Shown here: piece by piece, positions 1 through 16,258 of the stretch
Numbering within the stretch: position 1 is the stretch's first letter
Layout of the letters: each line of letters opens with the position of its first letter
Assembly (NCBI GenBank): GCA_020636105.1
Contig: JACJYL010000002.1
Location: 496,001-560,000 of the forward strand
Source of the DNA: Lewinellaceae bacterium
GTDB taxonomy: Bacteria; Bacteroidota; Bacteroidia; Chitinophagales; Saprospiraceae
Length of the DNA stretch: 64,000 bases
Direction of reading: 5' to 3'
Program-made: the position numbers and the translations under genes
Notes under the pieces: model-generated
The model's database searches: none
What the model saw: the letters and a program-made list of their open reading frames with translations, nothing else
What the model was told of the DNA's origin: nothing

Positions 1-508
1 GCGCTGCAATAATTCTTTCCGCTGAATCCGTCTGAATCCTGCTCTTCGGAAATATGGCATCCGTGGCACCAATGAAAGCCGTCCGGTAAAACGCCCAGAT
101 CCTGGGAGGCACATCAGTCGGCGCATGAAATACAAAAAACAGATCCAGCATTTTGTGGCGGAAGTCGATCAGGAGCCTCTTAAGGTAAATATCACTGTCC
201 ACGTTGCTGGTCAGATAACCCCGGCAGTCATCAAAAACAATAATCCCGTCCCTGAAATATTTGTGAATGTATTTCATGGTATCCTTCTCCTGGCGCATAT
301 AGTACACCTGTTTGATGCCCTTTTTGAATTTCCAGCTTTCTTTTTTGGTAATATCAATTTCCTCATACTGCCGCCAGATGGCGGGAGCGCCATTTAGGGT
401 AATTACAATGACCCTTTCCTTCATCGCTTTGATGATGGTATGCGCCAAATAACTTTTGCCGGTCCCGTTGCGCCCCATGACCATGGTCACCTGTGCGTCT
501 CTGTGCAT
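1..508 (-). CDS. P-loop NTPase, possible A32/FtsK-HerA-like genome-packaging ATPase (N-terminal part; C-terminus beyond window edge)
   Basis: Absent from the ORF track because it runs off the window. Reverse-strand ATG at 508 gives MHRDAQVTMVMGRNGTGKSYLAH (Walker A GRNGTGKS), followed by IIVFDDC (Walker B-like) and FRHKMLDLFFVFH..VPPRI. A 3-nt gap separates it from the upstream gene. Confidence 0.6.
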   Translation of the reverse strand, partial: MHRDAQVTMVMGRNGTGKSYLAHTIIKAMKERVIVITLNGAPAIWRQYEEIDITKKESWKFKKGIKQVYYMRQEKDTMKYIHKYFRDGIIVFDDCRGYLTSNVDSDIYLKRLLIDFRHKMLDLFFVFHAPTDVPPRIWAFYRTAFIGATDAIFPKSRIQTDSAERIIAA

Positions 509-511
509 TGA

Positions 512-1105
512 TTATGATTTTATCGGTTGTACAGTCTGTTTTTTGGCTTCCACTTCCTTGCGGTCCTTCATGGCCTTATTCATCATCGGGGCATAACCAA
601 TCACCATGGCAGAAATAAACATCCATTCCAAGCTGAGGCGCATTTGATACTTTTTGACCAGGGCAGCCCCAAGCTCCACCTCATAATCATTCCCCTGGAT
701 CTTCTCTTTCCGGCGCCGGTATCGGTCGCTATCCATGCCGGAGATCATTCCAAAAGAAAAAGCAAATACTTTATCTATCTGGATCAACAGAAACTCCGCC
801 GTGAATTTGTGTTCTTCGGTATAATCCAAATGGTCCGCCATTTGCTCGTCGGATTCTCCCGGGAGATCATCGTCCGGGTTATCTGGATCCATTTCGTCCT
901 GATCATCCGATTCAAAGGCCGGAGGCGGGTCGATCTTCTCCCTGGGAGCTTTCATTTCTTTTATAAATGAATCTACGTCACCCGTTGCCTGTTTGGCCGT
1001 AAAAAAATCATCGGCATTGGTGGCGGTTTGTTCCTCGATAACTTCCGCTGGTTTGATTTCCTCAACCGGTTGGGTCGGGTTTTCTTTTTCTGCTTGTTTG
1101 GCCAT
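512..1105 (-). CDS. Hypothetical acidic protein with C-terminal hydrophobic segment
   Basis: 197-aa ORF with a D/E/P-rich N-terminal half and a WMFISAMVIGYAPMM segment. Tightly packed in the minus-strand operon 1671->1. Confidence 0.6.
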   Translation of the reverse strand: MAKQAEKENPTQPVEEIKPAEVIEEQTATNADDFFTAKQATGDVDSFIKEMKAPREKIDPPPAFESDDQDEMDPDNPDDDLPGESDEQMADHLDYTEEHKFTAEFLLIQIDKVFAFSFGMISGMDSDRYRRRKEKIQGNDYEVELGAALVKKYQMRLSLEWMFISAMVIGYAPMMNKAMKDRKEVEAKKQTVQPIKS

Positions 1106-1106
1106 T

Positions 1107-1427
1107 TTATTTTGCGTTTAAAAGTTCACTTAGGGGAAAAGAAGAAAAGGGGGCACTCATGGTCATGGTCCCGTTTTCGTCCCGTTTAAGGGCATGCACG
1201 GATAAATTCAACTGTCCGTTAATAGCCACCACGCTATAAGCGATTTTATCCCAACCTTCCGGTAGTTTGCCGCCTTCGCTTTCCGGCCTTTCCATACCTT
1301 CCAATTTTTCGACAAATTGTTTTTCCAGTCCGGGAAGCATATTGGCGGCCATGCCCACCATTGCCGATTGAGGATTAAAATGTTCTTTAAAGCCCTTGAG
1401 CTTGTCCAATAGATTTTTGTCCGCCAT
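1107..1427 (-). CDS. Hypothetical protein
   Basis: 106-aa ORF with a 1-nt gap to the downstream gene. Overlaps the upstream ORF by 41 nt. Confidence 0.5.
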   Translation of the reverse strand: MADKNLLDKLKGFKEHFNPQSAMVGMAANMLPGLEKQFVEKLEGMERPESEGGKLPEGWDKIAYSVVAINGQLNLSVHALKRDENGTMTMSAPFSSFPLSELLNAK

Positions 1428-1671
1428 TGATCTTGTATTTAGTTACGAAAATATTTTTTTGCCCCATCCGGTGAGGCTCCAGGGAAATAATTTTGTTTTC
1501 GAGTAGTTTGATGATCGAAGCCCGGACCCGCCTTTCCAGGTTGTATTGTTCCCGCCTGGTTTCATAGATGTGAATGAGCAGAGCCAGCTCCCTTACTGAT
1601 AGTGCTTTGTTGGCCGTTTGCAGCTTTTTTTTGATTAAATAGCTTAAGTAGGTTCCGTACAATTCCATCAA
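1387..1671 (-). CDS. Small putative DNA-binding (winged-helix-like) protein, first gene of the leftward operon
   Basis: 94-aa basic ORF (LSVRELALLIHIYETRREQYNLERRVRASIIKLLENKII) that starts next to the palindromic divergent control region. Confidence 0.45.
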   Translation of the reverse strand: MMELYGTYLSYLIKKKLQTANKALSVRELALLIHIYETRREQYNLERRVRASIIKLLENKIISLEPHRMGQKNIFVTKYKINGGQKSIGQAQGL

Positions 1672-1676
1672 AATAG

Positions 1677-1696
1677 TTATATTTGTACAAATATAA
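1677..1696. promoter_or_regulatory. Perfect 20-bp palindrome TTATATTTGTACAAATATAA in the 45-bp divergent intergenic region
   Basis: Read directly from the sequence. Each half contains TATATTTG, which matches the Bacteroidota -7 box TAnnTTTG, once on each strand. Confidence 0.65.
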
Positions 1697-1716
1697 ACAA
1701 ATTAGTTGTAATAATC

Positions 1717-1995
1717 ATGGGTTTAAACATTTCGAATAAAGTAGTATCACCCACTGGCAAAAGAATAGACTGCCGGGTAAAAGTCTCCGGTTTATTCGTC
1801 GAACCGTATGAAATCGATTTGAGGATTCTCAGCCGTGAGGTAATAAATGAAAACCAGATTGAGGATCTGATCGACCAGGTGATCGATCGAAAAAAGAATT
1901 GGAAACAAGGCAAGAAAAATCTGTCATTGAATCTAAATGGAATCAATGCCAATGCTTATATAACCAAAATCAAAAGCGATGCAGATAACAGCTAA
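1717..1995 (+). CDS. Hypothetical protein (rightward early gene)
   Basis: 92-aa ORF that starts 21 nt after the palindrome. Confidence 0.5.
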   Translation: MGLNISNKVVSPTGKRIDCRVKVSGLFVEPYEIDLRILSREVINENQIEDLIDQVIDRKKNWKQGKKNLSLNLNGINANAYITKIKSDADNS

Positions 1996-2389
1996 AGACA
2001 CGGCCGATTTTTACAACAGCCTGTTTTTTGATGAAGAAAAGAACCTGGTGGAGCCCCATGTTTCCCTTTTCATCAAAAGCGGGGAAAATCAACTGGTTAT
2101 CCCAGACATAAAAATTACTGCCAAAAAAGAATTTCACCAGATCATTCTTGATTTCCACAACCGACTGTTAAAAAATGGGCCATTGGTATTGGAAGAGGCT
2201 GCAGAGCCTCCGAAGTCGGAAACGCCCCTGATCGACTTCAAAAGGGTGGAATACCGCGACAACGCCTATTTTGTGGAACAGCTCGATCTGGAGACGTTCA
2301 GGATCCTCAATGAAGAAAGGACTAAAGAGATCAGTTTGAAGAGTCCAACGGCAAAGGCCATCATCAAAAGATTTAAAGAAGCATTTTAA
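1979..2389 (+). CDS. Hypothetical protein
   Basis: 136-aa ORF that overlaps the previous gene by 17 nt and is followed by a strong terminator. Confidence 0.55.
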   Translation: MQITAKDTADFYNSLFFDEEKNLVEPHVSLFIKSGENQLVIPDIKITAKKEFHQIILDFHNRLLKNGPLVLEEAAEPPKSETPLIDFKRVEYRDNAYFVEQLDLETFRILNEERTKEISLKSPTAKAIIKRFKEAF

Positions 2390-2407
2390 AAAGGTTGATT
2401 GATTTAC

Positions 2408-2447
2408 AAGGCCCTCACCGCCCGGTGATGGGCCTTTTTTCGTTTTT
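2408..2447 (+). terminator. Rho-independent terminator
   Basis: Hairpin AAGGCCCTCACCG-CC-CGGTGATGGGCCTT followed by TTTTCGTTTTT. Confidence 0.7.
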
Positions 2448-2558
2448 ATACCCATCATTCGCCCCGTGTCGGTTTATCGCCTTCTATCGCTTTGCCCGAG
2501 GATGTAATTTAACATTGTGTTTTATTACGCAAACGATTTTTCATAAAATACAATTCGT

Positions 2559-3149
2559 ATGTACAATCAAAGAGTTGCAAGGCGAGTAAATAAAGTTCCT
2601 GCAAATATTCAAATGATCAACAGCCCGACGGTCGTACCCGTCTCTAAGGAGGTTGGTCCTTCCGTACCTGCCGATCCTTATATCTCCCTGACGGTAGATA
2701 CTACCGATGCCGGTATTTTGGCCCCTGTGACTGTTGTTTTGTTTGATGCCTCAATGGGCTATCAACTGGCCAATAGTTTTGCCATGAACCCACTCATCAA
2801 GATCGTAGGGAATACCGCGGTTTATCAGTTCATCCTGAACGACCTTGGATCAAGCAACGGAAGTTACTTCGACACCATCCAGCAAAGGATTGATGATGAA
2901 AACGTGGCCATGACCCAATTCGGTCACCCAATCGAGATCCACGAATCCACCAAGGGCAGTCGTCCGAGGTTGCTTCAAACCATCCATCCGGGAATGGGTA
3001 TCCACGAAGGGCAGTATCAGAAGGGTATCAATACCTTTTCTTTCCCTTTCACCGTAGGCAACAGGACCGCATTTGTATATGTCCAGGAACCTGGTATCAA
3101 GATCACCTGGGGATTCTACCAAAAGGCAGAACTGGGACGTATCAAGTAA
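2559..3149 (+). CDS. Hypothetical beta-rich protein, candidate virion structural (capsid-like) protein
   Basis: 196-aa ORF and first gene after the terminator. It has no TM segment and a composition typical of beta-sandwich proteins. The function is inference only. Confidence 0.55.
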   Translation: MYNQRVARRVNKVPANIQMINSPTVVPVSKEVGPSVPADPYISLTVDTTDAGILAPVTVVLFDASMGYQLANSFAMNPLIKIVGNTAVYQFILNDLGSSNGSYFDTIQQRIDDENVAMTQFGHPIEIHESTKGSRPRLLQTIHPGMGIHEGQYQKGINTFSFPFTVGNRTAFVYVQEPGIKITWGFYQKAELGRIK

Positions 3150-3179
3150 TCCGATTGCATAAATCGAAAAAAAAGCGAT

Positions 3180-3491
3180 ATGCTTTTACAAAATAATCCA
3201 ACCTACTCAGGGTATTACAACCCGTGGGAAGGTCAAGGCGATACAATTGACACAGGTGGCGGATTTTCTTCCCCTGCGGATGCTCCTTCCGGTTTTTGGG
3301 ACTGGTGGGGGGACCATGGAGATGAAGCAACAGATTTCGGCAAAAGTATTTTATGTATGATAAAACCGGAAACTTGCCGTCAAAATAGCGGCTATCCGCC
3401 ATCTGGTCAACCAGCGCAAAACAATACCATTATGTATGTCTTGCTGGGGATTGTAGTCGTTTTGTTGATTGTTTTCATGTTCAAAAAGTAA
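3180..3491 (+). CDS. Small membrane protein (C-terminal TM anchor)
   Basis: 103 aa; G/W/D-rich N-terminus; C-terminal IMYVLLGIVVVLLIVFMF. Confidence 0.6.
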   Translation: MLLQNNPTYSGYYNPWEGQGDTIDTGGGFSSPADAPSGFWDWWGDHGDEATDFGKSILCMIKPETCRQNSGYPPSGQPAQNNTIMYVLLGIVVVLLIVFMFKK

Positions 3492-3495
3492 TAGA

Positions 3496-3762
3496 ATGAA
3501 CAATAATCTTTCTGTAAAAAACTCAGCGATCAGGCAGTTAAATGCCAATAAAGGATATGCAGCCACCTCAGAGGTTCCTGGTAAGGAAACCGTTGAAGCC
3601 ATTGCAGCCGGATCACAAATCGAAAACAATCAGGGCTGGGACTGGAAGAAATTTGTCAACGGCACCACGGAGAAACGCACCTATTGGATTGCGGCAGGGA
3701 TTTCCCTGGCATTGATCGTGTTGTTTATCCTGGCCGTCAAATACCGTTTTATCAAACTTTAA
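3496..3762 (+). CDS. Small membrane protein (C-terminal TM anchor)
   Basis: In-frame ATG at 3496 (MNNNLSVKN...) within track ORF 3469-3762. TM segment YWIAAGISLALIVLFILAV. Confidence 0.55.
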   Translation: MNNNLSVKNSAIRQLNANKGYAATSEVPGKETVEAIAAGSQIENNQGWDWKKFVNGTTEKRTYWIAAGISLALIVLFILAVKYRFIKL

Positions 3763-3766
3763 GGGC

Positions 3767-3874
3767 ATGAGAATAACGCTAAACTGGTATATCATTGGCA
3801 TTATTGCCATTATTCTAATAATCTTCATCCGGGCCTTTGATGTAGATCAGCTACTCGGTAGGGATTCGGATTAA
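3767..3874 (+). CDS. 35-aa single-pass membrane peptide (sORF below track cutoff)
   Basis: Hand translation: MRITLNWYIIGIIAIILIIFIRAFDVDQLLGRDSD. Starts 4 nt after the previous stop. Confidence 0.4.
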   Translation: MRITLNWYIIGIIAIILIIFIRAFDVDQLLGRDSD

Positions 3875-3887
3875 AAAAATTTATACA

Positions 3888-4010
3888 ATGAAAAATTTGC
3901 ATTGGGCAGTACAGTTCATCCTTTTGTTTGCAGTCATTACAGCGGCCTTTTACGCTGGTGATGTCCTTCTCGAAAAGAGATATGCCAAAAACCTGCCGGC
4001 AGGGGAATAA
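3888..4010 (+). CDS. 40-aa single-pass membrane peptide (sORF)
   Basis: Hand translation: MKNLHWAVQFILLFAVITAAFYAGDVLLEKRYAKNLPAGE. Confidence 0.4.
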   Translation: MKNLHWAVQFILLFAVITAAFYAGDVLLEKRYAKNLPAGE

Positions 4011-4035
4011 CATTCATTCAAAAAAAGAATAGATC

Positions 4036-4182
4036 ATGTTGGAAGACTTATTCACCATCGAAAACGGCAAGGTAAAATTCACCGTAAATGTGGCCTTCGA
4101 TCCGGTCAGTGCCTTATGGCTCGCAGGTGCCATTTTTGTCGGTCTGGTGCTGGCTCTTTTGATTTATTCCAAAATTCGCTAA
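4036..4182 (+). CDS. 48-aa membrane peptide (sORF)
   Basis: Hand translation: MLEDLFTIENGKVKFTVNVAFDPVSALWLAGAIFVGLVLALLIYSKIR. The stop lies 3 nt before the next ATG. Confidence 0.4.
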   Translation: MLEDLFTIENGKVKFTVNVAFDPVSALWLAGAIFVGLVLALLIYSKIR

Positions 4183-4185
4183 ACG

Positions 4186-4563
4186 ATGAAAAGCATTTTT
4201 GTCGGTGGAATAGGTGTTTTAGGGCTTGGTTTACTGCTTTGGTATTTTTTGAAACCTCAGAAAGAAGGCAGCGACGACGCCGGAAATACCTGCATTAAAG
4301 TGAACCGCGAAAAGTTCAAGGTCAGGTGGATGGAAGACAACATTCCGGGCGGAATAATCGGGAATATTGCAAAAAGTATCTTCGGTTCTTCCGATCCAAA
4401 ATTTGGCAATATAGTCAGCGGATTTTTTAAGTCTATCGATGTATATCCGTCGGAAGGAGCTGGAAAGTATTACAAAAACCAGATCACAGCCTATTACAAT
4501 AGCCCTAACGGACTTCCCAGGTGGGAGGTGGTACAGGGGGAGCTGGCTTGTGATTCATTTTAA
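4186..4563 (+). CDS. Small protein with N-terminal TM/signal anchor
   Basis: 125 aa; MKSIFVGGIGVLGLGLLLWYFL. Confidence 0.6.
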   Translation: MKSIFVGGIGVLGLGLLLWYFLKPQKEGSDDAGNTCIKVNREKFKVRWMEDNIPGGIIGNIAKSIFGSSDPKFGNIVSGFFKSIDVYPSEGAGKYYKNQITAYYNSPNGLPRWEVVQGELACDSF

Positions 4564-4575
4564 AAAATTATCATT

Positions 4576-5001
4576 ATGGCAATCGAAAAATTTGGTTCCG
4601 GTGCTTATCAGGATTATTTCAAAATCAAAGGAAGCGGAACAACGCAGTCCATTGCCGCATTCGTCCAGGACATCGACGATGGCGGAACCGATGCGATTGA
4701 AGAAATTTACCAGGGAGCTAACCAGGGCATGGTCCTGACTTCCGGTGGAAATGTAGTGTCAATCACCGAATTCGTAAAATATGCGGAACTCGGCGGAACG
4801 GATACCATAACGGGCCAACTAATCGGTGCCGGGTCAAATGTAATTGTGGACGGAGGAGTGATGAAGAACCTGGTAGAAAAACAATCCGGCAATATCCAGG
4901 TACTCGAAGAAGGTCCTGAGATCAGCCTTTTAGAAACAGATGAACCCAGCGGCGACCTATCAGGAGGCGAGGATCCAGAAGCCAGCGATGAGCCGGAGTA
5001 G
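4576..5001 (+). CDS. Hypothetical protein with acidic C-terminal tail
   Basis: 141 aa; G/T-rich; ends DEPSGDLSGGEDPEASDEPE. Confidence 0.6.
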   Translation: MAIEKFGSGAYQDYFKIKGSGTTQSIAAFVQDIDDGGTDAIEEIYQGANQGMVLTSGGNVVSITEFVKYAELGGTDTITGQLIGAGSNVIVDGGVMKNLVEKQSGNIQVLEEGPEISLLETDEPSGDLSGGEDPEASDEPE

Positions 5002-5059: not shown

Positions 5060-5209
5060 ATGAGTTTATCAAATTTGACAAGTAATAAAGTGGTCCAGGT
5101 GCTTTTTGTTATCGCTGCAGTATTAAGCATAATTGTGGCAGTAAAAACCCTGAGTAAAAAGAAATGCAGTTGCAATGATGACCAAGACCTAACTCCAATT
5201 GAAACTTAA
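5060..5209 (+). CDS. 49-aa single-pass membrane protein, holin-like by position (sORF)
   Basis: Hand translation: MSLSNLTSNKVVQVLFVIAAVLSIIVAVKTLSKKKCSCNDDQDLTPIET. Overlaps the amidase start by 11 nt. Confidence 0.45.
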   Translation: MSLSNLTSNKVVQVLFVIAAVLSIIVAVKTLSKKKCSCNDDQDLTPIET

Positions 5210-5774
5210 TCCGAAAATATTATTCTTTGTCCTGGTCATTGTCTTACTGTCGGTCGTGGTGTACTACAACCTTGGAATTGGTATCAAAAATATCACCAAA
5301 TTCCTGCCAAAACACCCGACAAAACAATTTGACAAAAGGAGTTTAACTGTGATAACGGAGGCCGTGGTTCATCACACGGGCACAGATAGCAAAAGTACAA
5401 CGATTGAAAGCATTGCAAAATATCACGTTGAACCCGGCAATCATATTTGTGACGATGGATGCCCCGGAATTTCTTATCATTTTATGATAAAACCAAACGG
5501 GACCATTTACCAGGTAAACGAATTGGAAACGGTAAGTTATCAGTGTGGCGGTTGTAATTACAATACTATCGGCATTTGCCTGATTGGCAACTTTAACGAA
5601 GAGGTGCCGACTGAAAAGGCCCTGAAAGCAGTGGCCAAAACAATAAAATACGTAAACAGGAGATTAGGCCGGAGTTTGGCCATTTCCGCCCATTACGATC
5701 ATAAAAGTACATCATGTCCGGGCGACAACACCAACATGGACAAAATCATTGAAATGGTGTATCCTATGGCATGA
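5199..5774 (+). CDS. N-acetylmuramoyl-L-alanine amidase (Amidase_2/PGRP fold) with N-terminal TM anchor; endolysin candidate
   Basis: Motifs AVVHHTG, ISYHFMI..NGTIYQ and HYDHKSTSCPG (zinc-ligand pattern). N-terminal ILFFVLVIVLLSVVVYY. TTG start. Confidence 0.85.
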   Translation: MKLNPKILFFVLVIVLLSVVVYYNLGIGIKNITKFLPKHPTKQFDKRSLTVITEAVVHHTGTDSKSTTIESIAKYHVEPGNHICDDGCPGISYHFMIKPNGTIYQVNELETVSYQCGGCNYNTIGICLIGNFNEEVPTEKALKAVAKTIKYVNRRLGRSLAISAHYDHKSTSCPGDNTNMDKIIEMVYPMA

Positions 5775-5792: not shown

Positions 5793-6362
5793 ATGCAAAA
5801 TATAGAAGTTTGGGTTATCAATGATGTATCAGTCCTTCAAGGTAACAGTAGTTGCCAAAATCCTACCTATTCATCAATATGTAATAAAATTACATCTGCT
5901 TATCAATCAGCTCAAACAAATGTAAATTTAGTTGATGCCTTTGCCCTGCCTGGCAGAAGCCAGGAAATAAGTCCAGTCGTAGAATATTTCAAATTAAAAC
6001 ATTTTCCCGCCCTTGTATTTTATGATCCAGATGGTGGATTGGGCTTTTACGCTATTGACGGCAATAAGATTACTGAAAAAAGGATAAAAAAAGCCTTTGA
6101 AATGGCTGAAAATTACACCTGGGATAACGCAACTGGAGGGTATATCAATGCTGATGGTGACAATGCAAACATAACGGATGATATGGAAACAAAAATAGGC
6201 GGATTAATGGGAGGAGATTGGGGTCTTCCCCTCGGTGGAATGTGGGGCGATTGTAAATCATATCTACCTGATTCCATGGACAAGGTTTGCGACATTCCTG
6301 TATGGCTTTATGCCTTGATCCTTTTATTGATCCTTATTTTATTAATCAAAATTGTGAGCTGA
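5793..6362 (+). CDS. Hypothetical protein with C-terminal TM anchor
   Basis: 189 aa; C-terminal IPVWLYALILLLILILLIKIV. Same reading frame as the amidase, from which it is separated by TGA plus 6 codons. Confidence 0.6.
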   Translation: MQNIEVWVINDVSVLQGNSSCQNPTYSSICNKITSAYQSAQTNVNLVDAFALPGRSQEISPVVEYFKLKHFPALVFYDPDGGLGFYAIDGNKITEKRIKKAFEMAENYTWDNATGGYINADGDNANITDDMETKIGGLMGGDWGLPLGGMWGDCKSYLPDSMDKVCDIPVWLYALILLLILILLIKIVS

Positions 6363-6724
6363 TGGGATTTTGTTTAGGCGGAAAATGGTGCAGAACACAG
6401 GACTGCAAAGAACGTTGCAAAGGATGGTTTGGAGCTCAACCCGACATTGAAAGGTCATGTAAAAATGCCTGCAAGGCAAATTCTGGCTTAACCAAAGATG
6501 ATTTTTTGTGCTCGGGTAACTGGATAGATCAGCAGATCATTTTTGCGGCTTATGGATACGATCCATGCACTGGAGACAATACTACGATTGAAGATTATTT
6601 CGATCCGCTGGATGACCGGGCAAGGGAAGACGCAAAACCTGAAAAATACAAAGATTTAATCATCATAGTAGCTGCCATCTTACTATTGGCATTGGCCGCT
6701 TTGATTTATATAAAAATGAAGTAA
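6362..6724 (+). CDS. Cys-rich protein with C-terminal TM anchor
   Basis: ATG at 6362 overlaps the previous stop (TGATG). Sequence MGFCLGGKWCRTQDCKERCKGW..., C-terminal LIIIVAAILLLALAALIYI. Confidence 0.55.
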   Translation: MGFCLGGKWCRTQDCKERCKGWFGAQPDIERSCKNACKANSGLTKDDFLCSGNWIDQQIIFAAYGYDPCTGDNTTIEDYFDPLDDRAREDAKPEKYKDLIIIVAAILLLALAALIYIKMK

Positions 6725-6940
6725 ATGGAACCCGTTAGCGCGATAGCAAATGCAGTATCTGATATTTTCGGAGGAGTCGTGGCCCTCATTGAAGGAAGGC
6801 GGGAATCTAAATTTGGGAGGCTCCCGGACTGGCTCAGTCCCCGGGACTTCCAGCGCAATGACTACACCGTTGATATCATTATCGGCGCCATGCTTTTGGT
6901 GTTGATTATTGTGATCATCGGCATAACGAGAGCAAAATAA
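6725..6940 (+). CDS. Small membrane protein
   Basis: 71 aa; ATG immediately follows the TAA of the previous gene; TM segment IIIGAMLLVLIIVIIGI. Confidence 0.55.
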   Translation: MEPVSAIANAVSDIFGGVVALIEGRRESKFGRLPDWLSPRDFQRNDYTVDIIIGAMLLVLIIVIIGITRAK

Positions 6941-6952
6941 ACGATAGAGGCG

Positions 6953-9934: not shown

Positions 9935-11482
9935 ATGAAACGCTTTTTGATCATTTTGATGACCGTGCTTTTTACGGTTCAGTTATTTTCCCAGGAAATC
10001 GAAATTCCCCGAAGTTACGAACGTCAAATTAAACGCCAGTCCAAAAAGGTGGAACGCCTTGAGGAAAAGCATGACGTAGTATTAGACCCGGAGGCTACCA
10101 TCCCGCTTTTACAAACCTTTGATAATGATCCGACAGCCATTGAAAACTGGGGGATAAAATACCTGGAATTTGACCAATACAGGGACAAAATCAAGGCAAA
10201 AAAAGATAAAAGGAAGGTCCTGATCGTCATCTTTGACACCGCCGGGGAATTGACGCATCCCTCACTTTTAAAGGCAGCCCTGAAAGGATATTCATACACG
10301 GGTGAACCCCTGGCGGATGAGCATGGCCACGCCACCCATGTAGCGGGAATTATGGCTTCCGATTTTACCAATATCGGGCTTTTGCAGGTTTTGATCGATG
10401 AAGGTTATGTGAAACTTCTCCCGGCCAAAATATTGCACAACCAGGGATGGGGCGATAAACCCGAAATCATTGCAGGTGTAAAGGATATTCTCAATAAAGT
10501 CCAGGTATATGTGGACAATGGATGGCTGGTGATTTTCAACAACTCCTGGGGATGATCGCAGCTGATTGAGGAATTGGTTCCCCTTTATGCGGAAGCCGAA
10601 AAAAAGGGTATTATCGTATGCGCCGCTTCCGGAAATAATGGCAGCAGTCAGGTATCCAATCCGGCCTCCATCAAAAATGTTATTGCCGTCGGGGCCTTGC
10701 AACAGAATGAAAAGGGGGAAGTGAGCCGGGCACCTTATTCCCAATACGGGGAAGCGTTGGAATTCGTGGCCCCGGGTTCTAATATTTACAGCACCTATAA
10801 AAATGGCAGTTTTGCCTTTCTTTCCGGTACCTCGATGGCAACACCGGAAGAAGTCGCTTGTCTGGCCATAACAGGGTCATACCACAGTCAAAACACCCCT
10901 TTGGAAATTGTTTCTCATGTAAGAAAAAACGCCAATGATCTTCCCCCTGCAGGTAAGGATATTTTTACAGGCTACGGAAGTACCCCCATTGGCAACCTAC
11001 TCGATAATATTCCTGAAAAAATTGGTGATGAACCCGACGACCCGGAAGATCCAGGCCAGGATAGCATTGTGATTAAAAAGGAACGCATCATTACCCTTCC
11101 GGTTAATGATCTGAAAATGGTTTGGGGTATTGGTTCCTTCAACGATCAGCGCCCTATCATGGTGGATCTGGTTTTAAATATCACTTCCAACCGCTTGGCA
11201 GAATTAACCTATGATGAGGCCGTTAATCTTGCGAATACCTTTTTCGGACGAACGGGATTGACGTTCTCAGACAAGAAGGCCGACGTTTACGACGCAGCAG
11301 AATGGACCGCAAGGTTTTACCACCGACACGCCAACGAAAAACAGGATGTTTATAAAGTAGGCATCAAACAGATTACCGTGACGGATGAAAAAGGCCGCAC
11401 ATTTACCCGGTTTGGAGAAGATCTAAAGATTTCCGAAAATGTAAGATTTGAAGATATTCCGATCCTGACGCAATTGAAGTAA
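9935..11482 (+). pseudogene. S8 (subtilisin-like) serine peptidase interrupted by one in-frame TGA at 10553-10555
   Basis: Track ORFs 9935-10555 and 10574-11482 share one frame. Catalytic D (IFDTAG), H (HGHATHVAG) and oxyanion N (NNSWG) lie before the stop; the AASGNNG block and S (GTSMATPEE) lie after it. Signal peptide MKRFLIILMTVLFTVQLFSQ. Confidence 0.75.
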
Positions 11483-11514: not shown

Positions 11515-11733
11515 ATGTTCACTAAAGATAAAAACACAACAATCGCCGGGATACTGGCCTTTGTTTCCTTGCTGGCCGGCCAGCTTCAATCAATGTTTGA
11601 TGCAGATCCTTTGACCAATCCGGAATGGTCCTTAATTGTTTCAGCGCTTTTTGTGTTGATCGGATTGCTTAGGGCCAAAGATTCTGTAAAAGAAAATCCG
11701 GAAACAAAAGAATTGAACCGAAGAAACGCTTAA
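11515..11733 (+). CDS. Small two-TM membrane protein
   Basis: 72 aa; TM segments IAGILAFVSLLAGQL and WSLIVSALFVLIGLL. Confidence 0.5.
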   Translation: MFTKDKNTTIAGILAFVSLLAGQLQSMFDADPLTNPEWSLIVSALFVLIGLLRAKDSVKENPETKELNRRNA

Positions 11734-11831: not shown

Positions 11832-14714
11832 ATGCCATACAATTTTTCAAAATCGGATATTCCTTACCAAACGGCTTATGAGGCCCATAGAGGCACCTCT
11901 TTTTCTCCTGAACGGCGGGCGAAGAGTGATCAGGAAAGTTATTATCAGGATTTAAAAAATGCGTATGATGAACTTCATGCCCTGGCGGTCAAATGGGATG
12001 CCGTAGATAAGTTTGAAAAGCGGTTTGGCTATTTTGTGGATGGGTATAAAAAGAGGTACCTCGATTATTTGTACAGCCAACACGGCTGGGTAAGTACCAT
12101 GATTGCGGGACCATCCAATTTCCCTGCGGCCCGGATGAATAAAAAAGGGGACCAGGTGCATAAGAAATTGAATGAACTGTTGTCTTATTACAACCTGCAG
12201 CTCAAAAAGATCAAACAGTACCTTAAACCCGCCCACCTCAAGCCGGTCAAGACCGGTCAGGATGGAGCCATCGACATCCTTCAAAAACAACTGGATGACC
12301 GCCTGGCTACGCAGGAAGCCATGAAGGCCGTCAATAAGATCGCCAAATCAAAGACCTTGAGTCGGGAGAAAAAGATCGAAAAGCTAAAAACCGATCTCAA
12401 ATTATCTGATAAGCAGATCGTCGAGGTTATGACCCCGGATTATGCCGGACGCATCGGATATCCGGGTTACCTGCTCACCAATAACAACGCCAACATCAAA
12501 AGGCTCAAAGGCCGGATCAGCGAAGAAAAGAAGCTGGCCGTTCAAAAAGACCAGGGCAACAAAGAACATACATTCGACGGCGGCATGGTGATCGAAAACT
12601 TTGAGCAAAACCGCCTGCAGATCAAACACGATGAAAAGCCCTCCAGGGAGATTATCCAGAAACTCAAAGCCCGTGGTTTTCGCTGGTCACCCTATTACGG
12701 AGTTTGGCAGCGTAATTTGAATACTACTCCGATGTTTTATGCCACCAATATTGTTGGGGAATTGACCCCGGTTGCAAAAGAACCGGAACCAGCCGAAAAC
12801 GTAGAAGATATTGAACTTTCCAAATCCGAGCAGGAAGCCATTGAAAAGCAGGTCAAAAAGCGGATGGAAGAAGTTGAAGAAGAGCCCATAAAGCCAGCAA
12901 AAAAAGAACCAGGGCAAAAAGAAAAAAATTCAACTTTAGCGGAAGAAGCAAAGATTGTCAGGGATTTCATAAAAAAGAAATGGCCCACTTCTTCCAAAAA
13001 AATAAAAGTCCTGAGCAAGGTGGATAAAAATTTATCTGCGAGAACGCATGTATTGATCGATTCCGGCAATACCCCACTGGACTATAAACTAAAAAACTGG
13101 TTTTTCAAAGTCCTGGGAGAACCAAAGGAACCCAATAATGTGGTAAAAGCTTATGGCATTGTTTTATACAGGCCCGAGCTGGTTGTCATTGTAAAGGCTA
13201 TTCAAAAAGAAAATGAAAAATCAGAGCCGGCCGAGGAAAAAGAAGAATGTTCTCGAAACTTTTACATCAATAAGATCCACACCGACCCGGCACGTTTCCA
13301 AAACCGGGAAAAACTTAACAAGGAGATCATCAACGAGATTGCGGAGAACTTCGATGCCAACCAGTTCGACCCAGTGGTGATCTGGTATGATAAGCAAAAA
13401 GAAAACTGGTTTTTATTAGCTGGCCACCACCGACTGAAAGGAGCCGAAAAAGCAGGCCGCAAGATGGTTAAAACCCGCTGCTTTGAGGGAAGTGAGGCCG
13501 AAGCCGTCAAATACGCTAAGGAACTGTCAAACGCCAACAGAACGCTGGAAACGCCAATGGAGCGGGCAAAAATATACAGGGCTGACATTCCAGGAATGCA
13601 CAAAAAGAAACTGGAAAATAAAGCTAAACGCCTGGAAGGTAAAAACTGGAATTTCATTCTTAACCTCGCATATTTAAAGCCGATAGGAAAGGTTTTAACG
13701 GCCCTGGCTGCCCTCGATCATAACAGCGACAAAACAACCCAGCAAAACCTGGAAAAGATTGCAGACTGGACGGGAGAAGCCCGCAGGATGTTTTCACAGC
13801 TCACCGATGCCCATGAAAATGAAATGTATGACTTCCTTTTGTCCAACTTTGCTAAAACTAAAAGTATTTCCCGAAAAACGGACTGGATCACCAAAATAAA
13901 TGCCATGGTCCACCGCCTGGACTTCAATCCGGACGAACCGTTAAACCTCAAAAGGATTGCCTACAAAACGCAAGGAGAAAGCGAATACGAGGCGCAGATG
14001 TTTGCCATAGACGAAGAGATCAAAGCCGTTGAGAAAAGCAAACAGGCGTTAAAGGATCGTTTTAATGATCCAAAGGTTCCTGGGTATGTTCACCCGGATC
14101 TTCCGAGTTACGAGCAAATGCAAAAAGAGGCGGAAGTTATTTCGGAAAAACTGGATCAGAAACTTAAGGCGCTGAGAAAGAAGAAACTCGACCTCATGCA
14201 GCAAAAGGGCCGAATGATAAAAGGAGGCCTGGACCAGGGAAATTTATTTGCCCAGGTAATAAACAAAGTAGATTCAAAGGTCATTGAGATCAGGAAGGAG
14301 CAAAATAGACCGTCTGGCCAGTCTTACGACCTTTTACATAAAGAAATCCACATTCTATTCAGGAAAAAAGAGGATGAACCGAATGGCTTTATTTTTGTAC
14401 GGCAAAATCTGAAATACATTAAAAACATTTTAGAAGTTGCCAAAAATGATAAGGTTGAATTTTCGACATCGGATGTTATAAAATTGGGCGTGATCATTCA
14501 GCCAATTTTGCAAGGAGATGAAGCAATAAAAAATGATGTAGGACGCTCAAATAAAAGAACGCTGGCCCCCACGTTTAATAATCTGCTCCGCTGGACAGGA
14601 AACCCCGGCAGATACGATTTAATTGGCGTAGATACCTTTAAAAATGAAAAACCGACCATCCTTGCCCGGAAGGTCAAAAAAGCACGAATATTTAATCTTT
14701 TAGGAATAAAATAA
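11832..14714 (+). CDS. Large multidomain (polyvalent-type) protein with ParB/Srx-like nuclease domain
   Basis: 960 aa. The ParB-type block is IHTDPARFQNRE...WFLLAGHHRLKGAEKAG. The N-terminal ~300 aa end in RGFRWSPYYGVWQR, which from memory resembles the DUF3560 modules of plasmid and phage proteins. Charged linkers and a long helical C-terminus follow. Confidence 0.75.
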   Translation: MPYNFSKSDIPYQTAYEAHRGTSFSPERRAKSDQESYYQDLKNAYDELHALAVKWDAVDKFEKRFGYFVDGYKKRYLDYLYSQHGWVSTMIAGPSNFPAARMNKKGDQVHKKLNELLSYYNLQLKKIKQYLKPAHLKPVKTGQDGAIDILQKQLDDRLATQEAMKAVNKIAKSKTLSREKKIEKLKTDLKLSDKQIVEVMTPDYAGRIGYPGYLLTNNNANIKRLKGRISEEKKLAVQKDQGNKEHTFDGGMVIENFEQNRLQIKHDEKPSREIIQKLKARGFRWSPYYGVWQRNLNTTPMFYATNIVGELTPVAKEPEPAENVEDIELSKSEQEAIEKQVKKRMEEVEEEPIKPAKKEPGQKEKNSTLAEEAKIVRDFIKKKWPTSSKKIKVLSKVDKNLSARTHVLIDSGNTPLDYKLKNWFFKVLGEPKEPNNVVKAYGIVLYRPELVVIVKAIQKENEKSEPAEEKEECSRNFYINKIHTDPARFQNREKLNKEIINEIAENFDANQFDPVVIWYDKQKENWFLLAGHHRLKGAEKAGRKMVKTRCFEGSEAEAVKYAKELSNANRTLETPMERAKIYRADIPGMHKKKLENKAKRLEGKNWNFILNLAYLKPIGKVLTALAALDHNSDKTTQQNLEKIADWTGEARRMFSQLTDAHENEMYDFLLSNFAKTKSISRKTDWITKINAMVHRLDFNPDEPLNLKRIAYKTQGESEYEAQMFAIDEEIKAVEKSKQALKDRFNDPKVPGYVHPDLPSYEQMQKEAEVISEKLDQKLKALRKKKLDLMQQKGRMIKGGLDQGNLFAQVINKVDSKVIEIRKEQNRPSGQSYDLLHKEIHILFRKKEDEPNGFIFVRQNLKYIKNILEVAKNDKVEFSTSDVIKLGVIIQPILQGDEAIKNDVGRSNKRTLAPTFNNLLRWTGNPGRYDLIGVDTFKNEKPTILARKVKKARIFNLLGIK

Positions 14715-14723
14715 ATTTGAATT

Positions 14724-14834
14724 ATGGAGAATGAAATTTCAACCACGCAGGTAATTATATCTTATTTAATTTTTGCAATGGTGATCGCTTTGGGTGTCAC
14801 TGTTGGGATAGCTGTTAGCAATAAGCTTTTATAG
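14724..14834 (+). CDS. 36-aa membrane peptide (sORF)
   Basis: Hand translation: MENEISTTQVIISYLIFAMVIALGVTVGIAVSNKLL. Its convergent 6-nt overlap with the integrase stop makes this a weak call. Confidence 0.3.
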   Translation: MENEISTTQVIISYLIFAMVIALGVTVGIAVSNKLL

Positions 14835-16001
14835 AAAAAAGTCAAAATCTTTTGCCACTGCAGCCGAATCCAGACCGGAGGCTCTCAAATAACTCCTTAA
14901 GGTTCTAATGTCCGTCCATCCCCCCAGGTCGGCAATTATTTTAATATTCATATTTTGCATGGCCAAATTTGTTGCTGCACTGCGCCTCGCTGTATGTGTA
15001 GTAACAAATTTCCATTTGGGGCCGCTTTCTTCTCCCTGCTTCACCTGAGCATCCACCTTCGCCAAAGCACACACCGTTTTAATATTTCTATTGCTTTGTG
15101 CATTGCTCCCAAAATCCATATCAAAGCCTCTTTTTTCCAGTATTTCCCAGGCTTCTGATTTTACCGGCACTATACATTCGTGACCGGTCTTTTGCTGTTT
15201 GTATTTCAAATAACGTTGTCCTGATTTTTCGAAAAAACTTTCCCGTTTTATGTTCCTGGAATCCTCAAACCGCATAAGGAAATAATAACTCACCAAAAAC
15301 CGATCCCTTTCCTTTTCCAGCCAGACATCACTTTCCAGATTGACGTTTTTAATCGCTTCTATTTCATCCTCGTTAAGATATATCTTGTTTGATGGTTTAC
15401 TTTGATGGACTTTGAATCTGTGGTGCTTATAAATCTCATTAGAATGCAATTCTTTATCCTCGGCAATCCTCATGACCGTTTTAATCACTTTGATGTGTTT
15501 TCCAAATCCGGGCAACCCACACCCTACCCCACCCAAAAGGAAGTTTCTGAAATTATCATAAAATTCCAGATCAATATCGTTAAAAGAAATATCCTTAAGT
15601 TTCTTTTCATCTTTGAACTGATTGATGCGAGTGATCAGGGATTTATAACTTTTTGCGGTATTAGGTTTGTGATCAGTAAACCCGTTTTGGATATCGTTGT
15701 AATAAGAGTTGAGAAAGTCGATAAAACTGGTTTGCTTGGTTTTACCGATCAAATTAATATCACCGGATTCAATTAATTGGGTTTCAATTATCCGTTTTTG
15801 TTCTCCAATTTTTGCATTGATCCGAACATGGTTAGGATGAGTTTTTTTGACAAGTCCTTTTTTATTGTCAAACTCGGAAGGTAAGACGTGAAATTTGGTT
15901 TTTATGTATTTTTTTTCACCATTTGCATTAACATACAGCTTTATGTTACAACTGCCATCAGCTCGGGGTACATAGGTCCAAAGAATAGGTTTTACTTGCA
16001 T
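14829..16001 (-). CDS. Tyrosine site-specific integrase (Bacteroidota phage-integrase type)
   Basis: 390 aa. C-terminal HTARRSAATNL (HxxR) and GGWTDIRTLRSYLR (catalytic Tyr). N-terminal arm-type domain. Adjacent to the tRNA 3' end. Confidence 0.9.
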   Translation of the reverse strand: MQVKPILWTYVPRADGSCNIKLYVNANGEKKYIKTKFHVLPSEFDNKKGLVKKTHPNHVRINAKIGEQKRIIETQLIESGDINLIGKTKQTSFIDFLNSYYNDIQNGFTDHKPNTAKSYKSLITRINQFKDEKKLKDISFNDIDLEFYDNFRNFLLGGVGCGLPGFGKHIKVIKTVMRIAEDKELHSNEIYKHHRFKVHQSKPSNKIYLNEDEIEAIKNVNLESDVWLEKERDRFLVSYYFLMRFEDSRNIKRESFFEKSGQRYLKYKQQKTGHECIVPVKSEAWEILEKRGFDMDFGSNAQSNRNIKTVCALAKVDAQVKQGEESGPKWKFVTTHTARRSAATNLAMQNMNIKIIADLGGWTDIRTLRSYLRASGLDSAAVAKDFDFFL

Positions 16002-16056
16002 CTTTGAAAAATTAAGAATTCTTTGAGGAAATAAGAAATAATTAAGAATAATTAGG

Positions 16057-16106
16057 CCAAATATACCCCAAAAAGACCAAAAAAACCCAAATACAACCCA
16101 AAAAAA
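16057..16106. repeat. Five 10-bp phased CC+A-tract units (predicted intrinsically bent DNA)
   Basis: CCAAATATAC CCCAAAAAGA CCAAAAAAAC CCAAATACAA CCCAAAAAAA, read directly from the sequence. Confidence 0.85.
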
Positions 16107-16133
16107 TAGATGTCATAAACACCTGATAATCAA

Positions 16134-16167
16134 TAAAAAAAGCCCTTGAACGTTGATATTCAAGGGC
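16134..16167 (-). terminator. Rho-independent terminator downstream of tRNA-Glu
   Basis: Minus-strand hairpin GCCCTTGAA-N8-TTCAAGGGC followed by TTTTTTT. Confidence 0.6.
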
Positions 16168-16186
16168 TTATGTCTTGGGTATTGAG

Positions 16187-16258
16187 TAGTCCGTACGGGA
16201 ATCGAACCCGTGTTACCAGGATGAAAACCTGGCGTCCTAACCCCTAGACGAACGGACC
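16187..16258 (-). tRNA. tRNA-Glu (anticodon UUC)
   Basis: Hand-folded 72-nt cloverleaf: GGTCCGT/TC/GTCT-AGGGGTTA-GGAC/G/CCAGG-TTTTCAT-CCTGG/TAAC/ACGGG-TTCGATT-CCCGT/ACGGACT/A. No encoded CCA. Position 1:72 is a G-T (G.U) pair. Confidence 0.9.

What the first reader, a model, noticed from the sequence alone, without database searches (positions are those of the whole stretch)
1..16258. Provirus at tRNA-Glu with the gene content of a tailless, membrane-containing virus rather than a tailed phage
More than 16 kb of tightly packed genes end at a tyrosine integrase facing the tRNA-Glu 3' end. The visible content is a small P-loop ATPase, at least 14 short membrane-anchored proteins, one abundant-looking 196-aa beta-rich protein, a lysis pair, a signal-peptide-bearing repeat fibre, a secreted protease and a ParB-nuclease giant protein. 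I recognise no terminase large subunit, portal, tail tube, sheath or tape-measure gene by motif. This combination is what membrane-containing PRD1/PM2-lineage viruses or pleomorphic viruses look like, and such proviruses are poorly described in Bacteroidota. The left end, and possibly a jelly-roll capsid gene, lies outside the window.
Basis: partly seen in the sequence, partly recalled or inferred. Interest (0 to 1): 0.85.

Follow-up and report, generated by a model that had tools for sequence, protein, structure and literature searches.

The report
Tailless jelly-roll provirus in Saprospiraceae
The left 16 kb of the window is most of an integrated virus from an undescribed Saprospiraceae lineage whose DNA-packaging motor and likely coat protein resemble those of tailless, membrane-containing viruses (PRD1/STIV type), not tailed phages; standard viral databases miss it entirely.

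Summary
Window 1-16258 is 94% coding and ends at a tyrosine integrase next to an intact tRNA-Glu, followed by ordinary host genes. Pfam and PHROGs give no portal, tail or HK97 capsid match. The only terminase-labelled match is a weak P-loop hit of the ATPase.

Two structure predictions decide the reading. The 197-aa ATPase (pLDDT 91) has as its top 15 PDB matches only B204, the genome-packaging NTPase of STIV/STIV2. The 196-aa protein (pLDDT 82.5) is a beta-sandwich with a basic disordered N-arm, and its weak matches are all of jelly-roll class.

About 13 small membrane-anchored proteins, an amidase, a conserved adaptor domain and a variable repeat protein follow. The same gene order recurs in 12 Saprospiraceae genome loci and several metagenome contigs.

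Relatives show what lies left of the window: an early operon, a cI-like repressor and, in one contig, the integrase contiguous with them. There is no room for tail genes. Neither hallmark protein was found in INPHARED or PHROGs, and the capsid candidate was not found in IMG/VR.

Not shown: attL, a membrane, particles or activity. The protease gene carries a nonsense codon.

Verdict: a new, probably family-level lineage of Varidnaviria-like temperate viruses with a capsid protein the size of a single jelly-roll.

The parts
1..508 (-). Packaging-type P-loop ATPase, residues 1-169 of 197; the gene runs off the left edge of the window. Walker A is GRNGTGKS and Walker B is IIVFDD.
   Evidence: the full-length protein is P0045. 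AF2 pLDDT 91. The top 15 Foldseek PDB hits are all STIV/STIV2 B204, E 1e-7, TM 0.56-0.65.
512..1671 (-). Three conserved genes co-oriented with the ATPase: g197 (512-1105, acidic N-terminus), g106 (1107-1427) and g94 (1387-1671). Function unknown; assembly or regulatory roles are inferred only.
   Evidence: Syntenic in 12-15 of 17 loci. No Pfam or PHROG match.
1717..2389 (+). Start of the late operon: g92 (1717-1995) and g136 (1979-2389). Both are conserved and of unknown function.
2390..2558 (.). Cargo hot spot between g136 and the capsid gene. It is empty in this element. Relatives carry a STAND NTPase, a pentapeptide-repeat protein or alpha/beta hydrolases here.
2559..3149 (+). Candidate major capsid protein, 196 aa. 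It is a jelly-roll-class beta-sandwich with a basic, disordered N-terminal arm of about 40 aa.
   Evidence: AF2 pLDDT 82.5. Foldseek matches are TNF/C1q, picorna-like and nepovirus coat proteins and STMV. It is among the most conserved core genes: 44-88% identity across 41 homologues. All family members are 186-220 aa.
3180..4563 (+). Six small membrane-anchored proteins: g103 (3180-3491), g97 (3469-3762), 35 aa (3767-3874), 40 aa (3888-4010), 48 aa (4036-4182) and g125 (4186-4563).
   Evidence: Hydropathy. Conservation.
4576..5001 (+). g141: soluble protein with three internal repeats of about 30 aa and an acidic tail. In L009/L010 it is fused to the C-terminal domain of g136.
5060..5774 (+). 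Lysis or peptidoglycan module: a 49-aa TM protein (5060-5209, holin-like by inference) and an N-acetylmuramoyl-L-alanine amidase with an N-terminal TM or signal anchor (5199-5774).
   Evidence: Pfam Amidase_2 E 4e-22. PHROG endolysin E 2.7e-26. Hydropathy.
5793..7180 (+). Four further membrane-anchored proteins: g189 (5793-6362), Cys-rich g145 (probable start 6362, end 6724), g71 (6725-6940) and g75 (6953-7180).
   Evidence: The start of g145 is inferred from relatives.
7173..7460 (+). g95: a conserved N-terminal adaptor-type domain followed by a poly-Gly linker. In relatives this domain heads variable proteins of 256-440 aa. It is a putative vertex or spike anchor (inferred).
7468..9921 (+). 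817-aa repeat protein with an N-terminal signal-like segment, 13.5 repeats of 31 aa and a beta-rich C-terminal domain. It is variable between relatives and is a putative host-recognition protein (inferred).
9935..11482 (+). Subtilisin-like S8 protease with a signal peptide. It is interrupted by an in-frame TGA at 10553-10555; the intact 515-aa homologue in L017 has GGA (Gly) there.
   Evidence: Pfam Peptidase_S8..
11515..11733 (+). g72, a small protein with two TM segments.
11832..14714 (+). 960-aa protein with an N-terminal domain matching phrog_19458/phrog_6744 and a central ParB-like nuclease domain. Relatives carry giant proteins of 1268-1466 aa with ParB_N (L017) or methyltransferase (L016) domains at this position. 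Anti-restriction or partition roles are inferred.
14829..16001 (-). Tyrosine integrase (Arm-DNA-bind_5 + SAM_5 + catalytic domain).
   Evidence: There is a 44%-identical homologue in L027.
16001..16173 (.). attR arm region. It holds short direct repeats at 16001-16037 and 16067-16106 and a hairpin at 16142-16167 that is conserved upstream of the integrase in L027. Similarity to L027 stops at 16173.
16186..16258 (-). Intact tRNA-Glu(UUC), the integration target. Its 3' end faces the element.

Best explanation
Window 1 to about 16180 is the right-hand two thirds of an integrated temperate dsDNA virus. It belongs to an undescribed lineage that, as far as sampled, occurs only in Saprospiraceae. 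It builds a tailless, jelly-roll-capsid particle and packages DNA with a PRD1/STIV-type (FtsK-HerA, A32/B204-like) ATPase.

Shown:
- A tyrosine integrase lies next to an intact tRNA-Glu, with host genes beyond it.
- The ATPase has a B204-like fold.
- The 196-aa protein is a conserved jelly-roll-class protein.
- About 13 small TM proteins, an amidase and variable large proteins follow in a late operon whose order is conserved across many genomes.
- In relatives an early operon, a cI-like repressor and the integrase close the circle.

Inferred mechanism:
1. The integrase recombines an attP site upstream of its own gene with the 3' end of tRNA-Glu.
2. A cI-like repressor, expected left of the window, maintains lysogeny.
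3. After induction, the early operon replicates a circular genome of about 24-30 kb. This operon includes a 414-459-aa winged-helix, Rep-like protein.
4. The late operon makes the 196-aa coat protein and the small membrane proteins. These proteins mark host membrane that becomes an internal vesicle under the shell.
5. The ATPase pumps DNA into the procapsid at one vertex.
6. The g95-type adaptor and the variable large proteins provide host recognition.
7. The membrane-anchored amidase and the small TM proteins breach peptidoglycan at entry or exit.
8. The giant ParB-type protein protects or partitions the DNA.
For: - ATPase: AF2 pLDDT 91. Foldseek ranks 1-15 are all B204 of STIV/STIV2, at full length and the same size (E 1e-7, TM up to 0.65). 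HerA, TcpA and Zot follow.
- Capsid candidate: pLDDT 82.5 with nine strands. Only jelly-roll-class matches appear. It has no TM segment or signal peptide and a basic N-arm. It is among the most conserved core genes. The family has a constant size of 186-220 aa.
- The ATPase and the capsid candidate are the two best-conserved genes of a syntenic core found in 17 loci.
- Thirteen small TM proteins lie in the late operon.
- No portal, tail or HK97 capsid hit was found in the window. None was found in 8-10 kb left of the ATPase in L015, L025, L027, L023, L028 or L030.
- Lysogeny module in relatives: HTH_3 repressors. In L027 the integrase is contiguous with the repressor and early operon, with no tRNA. 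In the window the integrase abuts tRNA-Glu and host genes. This is the pattern expected for integration through a site upstream of int.
- Two diverged copies per genome occur in two MAGs, and cargo hot spots carry defence-type genes. Both are typical of temperate viruses.
Against: - The jelly-roll assignment rests on weak structural matches (best E 8e-5, TM 0.2-0.43). The top classes include TNF/C1q-type domains, which can also be receptor-binding heads. No known PRD1-lineage capsid or penton protein is among the top 50 hits.
- Only one jelly-roll protein has been identified. Known single-jelly-roll members of the lineage use two, and hhalign finds no paralogue.
- The ATPase lies in a divergent operon rather than next to the capsid gene.
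- The repeat protein and the S8 protease carry Sec-type signal peptides. That is unexpected for parts of a virion assembled in the cytoplasm.
- attL and the left third of the element could not be recovered.
- No free or circular genome was seen. The contigs of about 30 kb turned out to be fragments of an integrated copy.
- The S8 gene has a nonsense codon.
- There is no evidence for lipid, particles or induction.
Confidence: 0.72

Rival explanations
1. It is the same virus lineage, but this copy is a defective, decaying provirus that can no longer form particles.
For: There is an in-frame TGA in the S8 protease where the closest relative has Gly. The left end and attL are unverified. Left of the ATPase, the closest relative L017 shares no homology with this genome. 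L009 is a copy lacking the ATPase block.
Against: All other core genes are intact and full length relative to L017 and L027. The ATPase is full length in the source MAG (P0045). The integrase and tRNA junction are intact. A single nonsense codon in a MAG could be a sequencing error, a population variant, or lie in a dispensable gene.
Confidence: 0.25
2. It is a pleomorphic or enveloped virus (plasmavirus- or pleolipovirus-like), or a vesicle-type element that buds through the membrane without an icosahedral shell. The signal-peptide proteins would be the envelope spikes, and the ATPase would have another role.
For: Sec-type signal peptides on the 817-aa repeat protein and the protease, and many small membrane proteins. 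The capsid fold assignment is weak.
Against: The ATPase's best structural match is a capsid-packaging NTPase. The 196-aa protein is soluble, jelly-roll class and strongly conserved. The large secreted protein has no C-terminal membrane anchor. An amidase is present.
Confidence: 0.08
3. It is a non-viral integrative element, such as an integrative plasmid or a defence or secretion island. Its FtsK/HerA-type ATPase would serve DNA transfer or partition, and the late operon would encode surface proteins.
For: HerA, TcpA coupling protein and Zot are lower-ranked structural matches. There is a ParB-like giant protein, secreted repeat and protease proteins, and no relatives of the capsid candidate were found in IMG/VR.
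Against: No relaxase, T4SS or replication-partition set was found. The ATPase is a 197-aa single domain like B204, not a multi-domain translocase. The cI-like switch, amidase, cargo hot spots and a strictly conserved small soluble beta-sandwich gene all fit a virus.
Confidence: 0.08
4. It is an ordinary tailed prophage whose head and tail genes are too divergent to recognise or lie left of the window.
For: The ATPase gives a weak match to a PHROG labelled 'terminase large subunit' (phrog_2666, E 1.5e-6). Most genes are ORFans.
Against: The ATPase is 197 aa with no nuclease domain and folds like B204. Relatives show the complete gene circle (int, cI, early, ATPase block, late, protease, ParB), so no 10-15 kb block is left for portal, HK97 capsid and tail genes. 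No Pfam or PHROG hit to any such gene appeared in any locus examined.
Confidence: 0.04

Closest known systems
Helvetiavirae: Thermus phages P23-77/IN93 (Matshushitaviridae) and the haloarchaeal SH1/HHIV-2 group (Sphaerolipoviridae, Simuloviridae)
   Same: These are tailless viruses with an internal membrane, capsid proteins the size of a single jelly-roll (about 170-290 aa), a small FtsK-HerA packaging ATPase, many small membrane proteins and genomes of 16-31 kb. Some are temperate and carry an integrase. (The properties of the known viruses are from my own knowledge. The features of this element are.)
   Different: There is no sequence similarity. Only one jelly-roll protein has been found instead of two paralogous ones. 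None of their capsid proteins is among the top 50 structural matches. The ATPase is in a divergent operon, not directly upstream of the capsid genes. The host is a mesophilic Bacteroidota family.
STIV/STIV2 (Turriviridae) packaging NTPase B204
   Same: It is the best structural match of the 197-aa ATPase. It has the same length and aligns over the full length, with TM 0.56-0.65 and E about 1e-7.
   Different: Identity is 14-18%, and a sequence profile does not detect it. STIV has a double jelly-roll capsid protein and an archaeal host (own knowledge).
Corticoviridae (PM2) and PM2-like proviruses of aquatic bacteria (Vinavirales)
   Same: These are temperate tailless elements with an integrase, a packaging ATPase, a string of small membrane proteins and a lysis function (PMC1950889, PMC5894146).
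   Different: The PM2 group has a double jelly-roll capsid protein of about 270 aa, a genome of about 10 kb and usually a rolling-circle Rep. Here the candidate is 196 aa, which is too short for two jelly-rolls, and the element is about 24-30 kb. No similarity was found.
Tectiviridae (PRD1, Bam35)
   Same: Internal membrane, small packaging ATPase, and a vertex spike with a conserved N-terminal anchoring domain (own knowledge). The last feature is analogous to the g95-type domain.
   Different: Tectiviruses have a linear genome with terminal proteins and a protein-primed family B polymerase (own knowledge). No polymerase was found in the window or in relatives. This element integrates by a tyrosine recombinase.
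Finnlakeviridae (Flavobacterium phage FLiP) and Cellulophaga phi48:2-like elements
   Same: They are tailless viruses of Bacteroidota, and FLiP contains lipid (PMC7654751, PMC5894146).
   Different: They have ssDNA genomes of 9-17 kb, a double jelly-roll capsid protein, a rolling-circle Rep and no packaging ATPase (PMC5894146). This element has a packaging-type ATPase and no RCR Rep match.

Membership tests
Varidnaviria (PRD1-adenovirus lineage), in the broad sense | Genome-packaging ATPase of the FtsK-HerA superfamily, A32/B204 clade | tested here: met
   The AF2 model (pLDDT 91) has B204 of STIV/STIV2 as Foldseek ranks 1-15, followed by HerA. The relationship is detectable by structure only, not by sequence.
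Varidnaviria (PRD1-adenovirus lineage), in the broad sense | Major capsid protein with vertical jelly-roll fold(s) | tested here: inconclusive
   The 196-aa protein is a beta-sandwich with only jelly-roll-class matches, but these are weak (E 8e-5 to 1e-3, TM 0.2-0.43). None of the top 50 is a capsid protein of this lineage. Orientation in a shell cannot be tested computationally here.
Varidnaviria (PRD1-adenovirus lineage), in the broad sense | Internal lipid membrane (prokaryotic members) | not testable with these tools
   Only indirect evidence: 13 small TM proteins in the late operon.
Bamfordvirae prokaryotic families (Corticoviridae, Tectiviridae, Turriviridae, Autolykiviridae) | [quoted passage not shown] | tested here: not met
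   No conserved soluble protein of that size occurs in the core. The capsid-candidate family is uniformly 186-220 aa across 64 clusters. There are no sequence matches.
Helvetiavirae (Sphaerolipoviridae, Simuloviridae, Matshushitaviridae) | Two paralogous single-jelly-roll major capsid proteins encoded next to the ATPase | tested here: inconclusive
   One candidate of single-jelly-roll size was found. The ATPase is not adjacent to the capsid gene.
Tectiviridae | Protein-primed family B DNA polymerase and a linear genome with inverted terminal repeats | tested here: not met
   No polymerase hit was found in the window or in the relatives' early blocks. The element is integrated by a tyrosine integrase.
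Caudoviricetes (tailed phages) | Terminase large subunit with nuclease domain, portal, HK97-fold capsid protein and tail genes | tested here: not met
   None was detected in the window or in 8-10 kb left of the ATPase in six relatives. The single 'terminase' PHROG hit is a P-loop match to a 197-aa protein that folds like B204.
tRNA-targeting integrative elements (provirus or island) | Tyrosine integrase adjacent to an intact tRNA, with a direct repeat of the tRNA 3' part at the far end | tested here: inconclusive
   The integrase, the intact tRNA-Glu and host genes beyond are confirmed. The far-end repeat is not in the window. None was noticed in the 339 bp recovered to the left, which was read by eye only. 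The left end could not be fetched.

The most novel reading that the evidence does not exclude
This is the first representative of a new family-level or higher lineage of Varidnaviria in Bacteroidota. It would be a temperate, membrane-containing icosahedral virus whose shell is built from a single jelly-roll protein of about 200 aa, filled by a B204-like ATPase. That would extend the 'single jelly-roll' branch of the lineage, so far known only from Thermus and haloarchaea, to mesophilic bacteria. It would also offer an intermediate form relevant to how double jelly-roll capsids arose. The signal-peptide-bearing repeat protein and protease may point to a so far undescribed way of arming or releasing such particles through the periplasm.
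Probability: 0.4. Interest if true: 0.85.

Novelty: new variant of a known kind. Interest (0 to 1): 0.7.

Why it matters
Tailless, membrane-containing viruses are badly under-sampled because annotation pipelines depend on tailed-phage hallmark genes.

Here a whole lineage goes unrecognised. It occurs in at least 12 Saprospiraceae genomes, sometimes twice per genome, and includes the cultured Flavilitoribacter nigricans DSM 23189. Its capsid candidate was not found in IMG/VR, and neither it nor the ATPase was found in INPHARED or PHROGs. All of its structural genes carry no functional annotation.

Saprospiraceae are abundant in activated sludge and in marine particle and algal-associated communities, so their temperate viruses matter for community dynamics.

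For virus evolution, a capsid protein the size of a single jelly-roll paired with a B204-type ATPase in a mesophilic bacterium would widen the known range of the single-jelly-roll branch of the PRD1-adenovirus lineage. Because a cultured strain carries a relative, the hypothesis can be tested directly.

Tried and rejected
- Extending the window leftwards failed. Exact-protein look-ups for window genes returned only short contigs. The best gave 339 bp, which holds the ATPase stop, a terminator-like hairpin and the 3' end of a converging TM ORF.
- The attL search found no repeat of the tRNA segment in window 1-16000 or in any locus then held (L004-L017).
- Contig sizes of about 30 kb looked like free viral genomes at first. 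I rejected this because the 30,282-bp contig is 100% identical over 20.6 kb to part of a 112,729-bp contig.
- g136 and g141 clustered together as apparent paralogues. I rejected this because they are linked only through a domain fusion in L009/L010. hhalign shows no relation to the capsid candidate.
- Sequence-level links to known viruses all came back empty:
  - megablast and tblastn against 50,697 phage genomes;
  - IMG/VR scans with the family alignment and three distant members; two alignments were too diverse to use;
  - PDB profile searches, which gave only P-loop noise;
  - PHROGs on all 47 family members;
  - NCBIfam.
- The metagenome scan with the ATPase alignment was swamped by generic Walker-A matches and returned one locus.
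- A tRNA-like 3' half beside the early block of L028 was not confirmed as a tRNA or tmRNA.
- The literature searches found no description of such proviruses in Saprospiraceae.

Full report
**Observation**

The window comes from a Saprospiraceae MAG. The 196-aa protein is identical to a protein named 'MAG: hypothetical protein KDC85_18280 [Saprospiraceae bacterium]' on a 2.08-Mb contig.

ARAGORN and Rfam both find one intact tRNA-Glu(UUC) at 16186-16258 on the minus strand. A 390-aa tyrosine integrase with arm-binding, SAM-like and catalytic domains lies at 14829-16001 on the minus strand. Its start is 185 bp from the 3' end of the tRNA.

To the right of the tRNA are ordinary host genes. These include a T9SS-sorted protein, malic enzyme/PTA, BatA, LpxB, a Mur ligase and acetolactate synthase.

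To the left, 94% of 16 kb is coding. Four genes on the minus strand end in a P-loop ATPase that runs off the window edge. From 1717 to 14714 there is one long plus-strand gene string.

- an Amidase_2 enzyme with an N-terminal anchor;
- 13 small proteins with a hydrophobic anchor, plus two large proteins with signal-like N-termini;
- an 817-aa protein with 13.5 repeats of 31 aa;
- an S8 protease;
- a 960-aa protein with a ParB-like domain.

Pfam and PHROGs report no portal, tail or HK97 capsid protein. The only terminase-labelled hit is a weak P-loop match of the ATPase to phrog_2666.

The closest relative has GGA (Gly) at that position.

**What the two hallmark proteins are**

The ATPase is 197 aa in full (P0045). 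Its family is narrow: 37 clusters in 5.8 billion proteins. Sequence searches see nothing beyond the P-loop.

An AlphaFold model built on the family alignment is confident (pLDDT 91, pTM 0.89). Its 15 best PDB matches are all B204, the genome-packaging NTPase of Sulfolobus turreted icosahedral viruses 1 and 2. The matches span the full length of both proteins (E about 1e-7, TM up to 0.65). HerA, the TcpA coupling protein and the Zot N-domain follow at E values 100 to 1000 times weaker. This is the ATPase clade that defines the PRD1-adenovirus lineage.

The 196-aa protein has 44 homologues in the word-indexed search. An exhaustive profile search of 1.84 billion representatives finds only 64 clusters, all 186-220 aa long. 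Its model (pLDDT 82.5) has a disordered, basic N-terminal arm of about 40 residues and a nine-strand beta-sandwich.

Foldseek finds only weak matches (best E 8e-5, TM 0.2-0.43). All are of jelly-roll class: TNF/CD40L and C1q domains, picorna-like and nepovirus coat proteins, and STMV.

The fold class therefore supports a capsid role without proving it. The size excludes a double jelly-roll.

**The element is a conserved unit**

A scan of one genome per prokaryotic species found 12 loci. Eleven are in Saprospiraceae, including Phaeodactylibacter, Lewinella and the cultured Flavilitoribacter nigricans DSM 23189. The twelfth is in a MAG labelled only 'Bacteroidetes bacterium'. Two MAGs carry two diverged copies each.

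The gene order is conserved:
1. ATPase, g197, g106, g94 on one strand.
2. On the other strand: g92, g136, a variable cargo slot, the 196-aa protein, small TM proteins, the amidase and more TM proteins.
3. A conserved adaptor domain with a poly-Gly linker, then variable large proteins.
4. The S8 protease, a small TM protein, and a giant ParB- or methyltransferase-type protein.

The ATPase and the 196-aa protein are the best-conserved genes. The cargo slot holds a STAND NTPase, a pentapeptide-repeat protein or hydrolases in different relatives. It is empty in the window.

**What lies left of the window**

The left flank itself could not be fetched; only 339 bp were recovered. Relatives fill the gap.

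In L027 the ATPase is 88% identical to the window's. There, the ATPase is met by a converging operon of 12 genes that includes a 433-aa Rep-like winged-helix protein. Next come a divergent cI-type HTH_3 repressor, a 53-aa gene and the start of an integrase 44% identical to the window's. L027 has no tRNA. L015, L025, L023, L028 and L030 show the same layout with methylases, nucleases and defence-type cargo.

Joining these maps gives a closed circle: int, cI, early operon, ATPase block, late operon, protease, ParB protein, and back to int. The total is roughly 24-30 kb. No 10-15 kb block is left for portal, capsid and tail genes.

In the window this circle is opened between int and cI, exactly at tRNA-Glu. 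A hairpin at 16142-16167 is conserved upstream of int in L027, and similarity stops at 16173, which is 12 nt before the tRNA. This pattern is what integration through an attP site upstream of int would produce.

Homology between pairs of relatives stops exactly at the ATPase stop codon. That position therefore appears to be a second variable junction.

**Mechanism**

The shown and inferred steps are set out in the best explanation. Briefly, this is a temperate virus that integrates into tRNA-Glu. It expresses a late operon for a jelly-roll shell and a set of small membrane proteins, and it fills the shell with a B204-type motor. The variable large proteins would serve host recognition and the anchored amidase would act on peptidoglycan.

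The weakest links are four:
- The identity of the shell protein rests on weak structural matches.
- There is no second jelly-roll protein.
- The membrane is unproven.
- The repeat protein and protease carry Sec-type signal peptides, which do not fit cytoplasmic assembly.

**Comparison with known viruses, and novelty**

Functionally the closest analogues are the single-jelly-roll, membrane-containing viruses of Thermus and haloarchaea, and the temperate PM2-like proviruses.

Membership in Corticoviridae, Tectiviridae or Turriviridae fails: there is no double jelly-roll protein and no protein-primed polymerase. Membership in Helvetiavirae is undecided.

Neither hallmark protein matches INPHARED or PHROGs, and the capsid candidate was not found in IMG/VR. 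The literature library holds no description of such proviruses in Saprospiraceae.

I rate it a new variant of a known kind. It is probably a new family within, or next to, the PRD1-adenovirus lineage.

**Limits**

Not demonstrated:
- No attL was found.
- No circular form was seen. The contigs of about 30 kb are fragments of an integrated copy.
- There is no evidence of activity.
- The protease gene carries a nonsense codon, so this copy may be defective.

Noticed in passing
window 10553-10555: There is an in-frame TGA inside the S8 protease gene. The 92%-identical homologue in L017 has GGA (Gly). It could be a nonsense mutation, a population variant or a sequencing error.
   Followed up: partly
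window 2390-2558; L010 5724-9856; L017 7981-8901; L028 5551-8198: The gap between g136 and the capsid-candidate gene is a cargo hot spot. It is empty in the window. Relatives hold a 1228-aa NB-ARC/TPR STAND NTPase, a pentapeptide-repeat protein or two alpha/beta hydrolases there.
   Followed up: partly
L008 2553-2682 and L011 959-1271: A second, partial copy of the ATPase gene's 3' end lies 2.5-5 kb beyond the intact ATPase gene. In three pairs of relatives, homology stops exactly at the ATPase stop codon. This might mark insertion of another element into the 3' end of that gene, or a remnant of an older copy.
   Followed up: no
window 7468-9921 and 9935-11482: The 817-aa repeat protein and the S8 protease both begin with Sec-type signal peptides, and neither has a C-terminal anchor. 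This is unexpected for components of a virion assembled in the cytoplasm and remains unexplained.
   Followed up: partly
L028 about 17850-17930: A tRNA-like 3' half lies just beyond the Rep-like gene at the edge of the early block: T-arm GATGG-TTCGATC-CCATC plus an acceptor-like strand. Neither ARAGORN nor Rfam calls a tRNA or tmRNA. It is a possible att site.
   Followed up: partly
L005 and L006 (one 8.87-Mb chromosome); L009 and L010 (one 1.87-Mb contig): Two diverged copies of the element (about 82-94% identical over the aligned stretches) sit in the same genome. L009 lacks the ATPase block.
   Followed up: partly
L005 745-3096; L028 10601-12667; L030 10988-13564; L015 5720-6412; L016 2123-2854 and 5727-6536: The early and flanking regions of relatives carry defence- or counter-defence-type cargo. 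Examples are a DndB-like protein, EAD11-domain proteins, SNase-like nucleases and several DNA methyltransferases.
   Followed up: no
window 4576-5001; L009 11584-12183; L012 11898-13009: g141 consists of three repeats of about 30 aa (xGAYxxxVxLxDGxxVSLAxxxK). In L009/L010 it is fused to the C-terminal domain of g136. In the Phaeodactylibacter subgroup one such repeat heads two tandem 185-aa beta-rich proteins. These could be further shell components.
   Followed up: partly
window 16001-16106: Short direct repeats (period 19, 1.9 copies; period 11, 4 copies, CCCAAAAAAA-like) lie between the integrase start and the tRNA. They are candidates for arm-type integrase binding sites.
   Followed up: no
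window 62001-63000: G+C content drops to 0.32, against about 0.43 for the rest of the host region.
   Followed up: no
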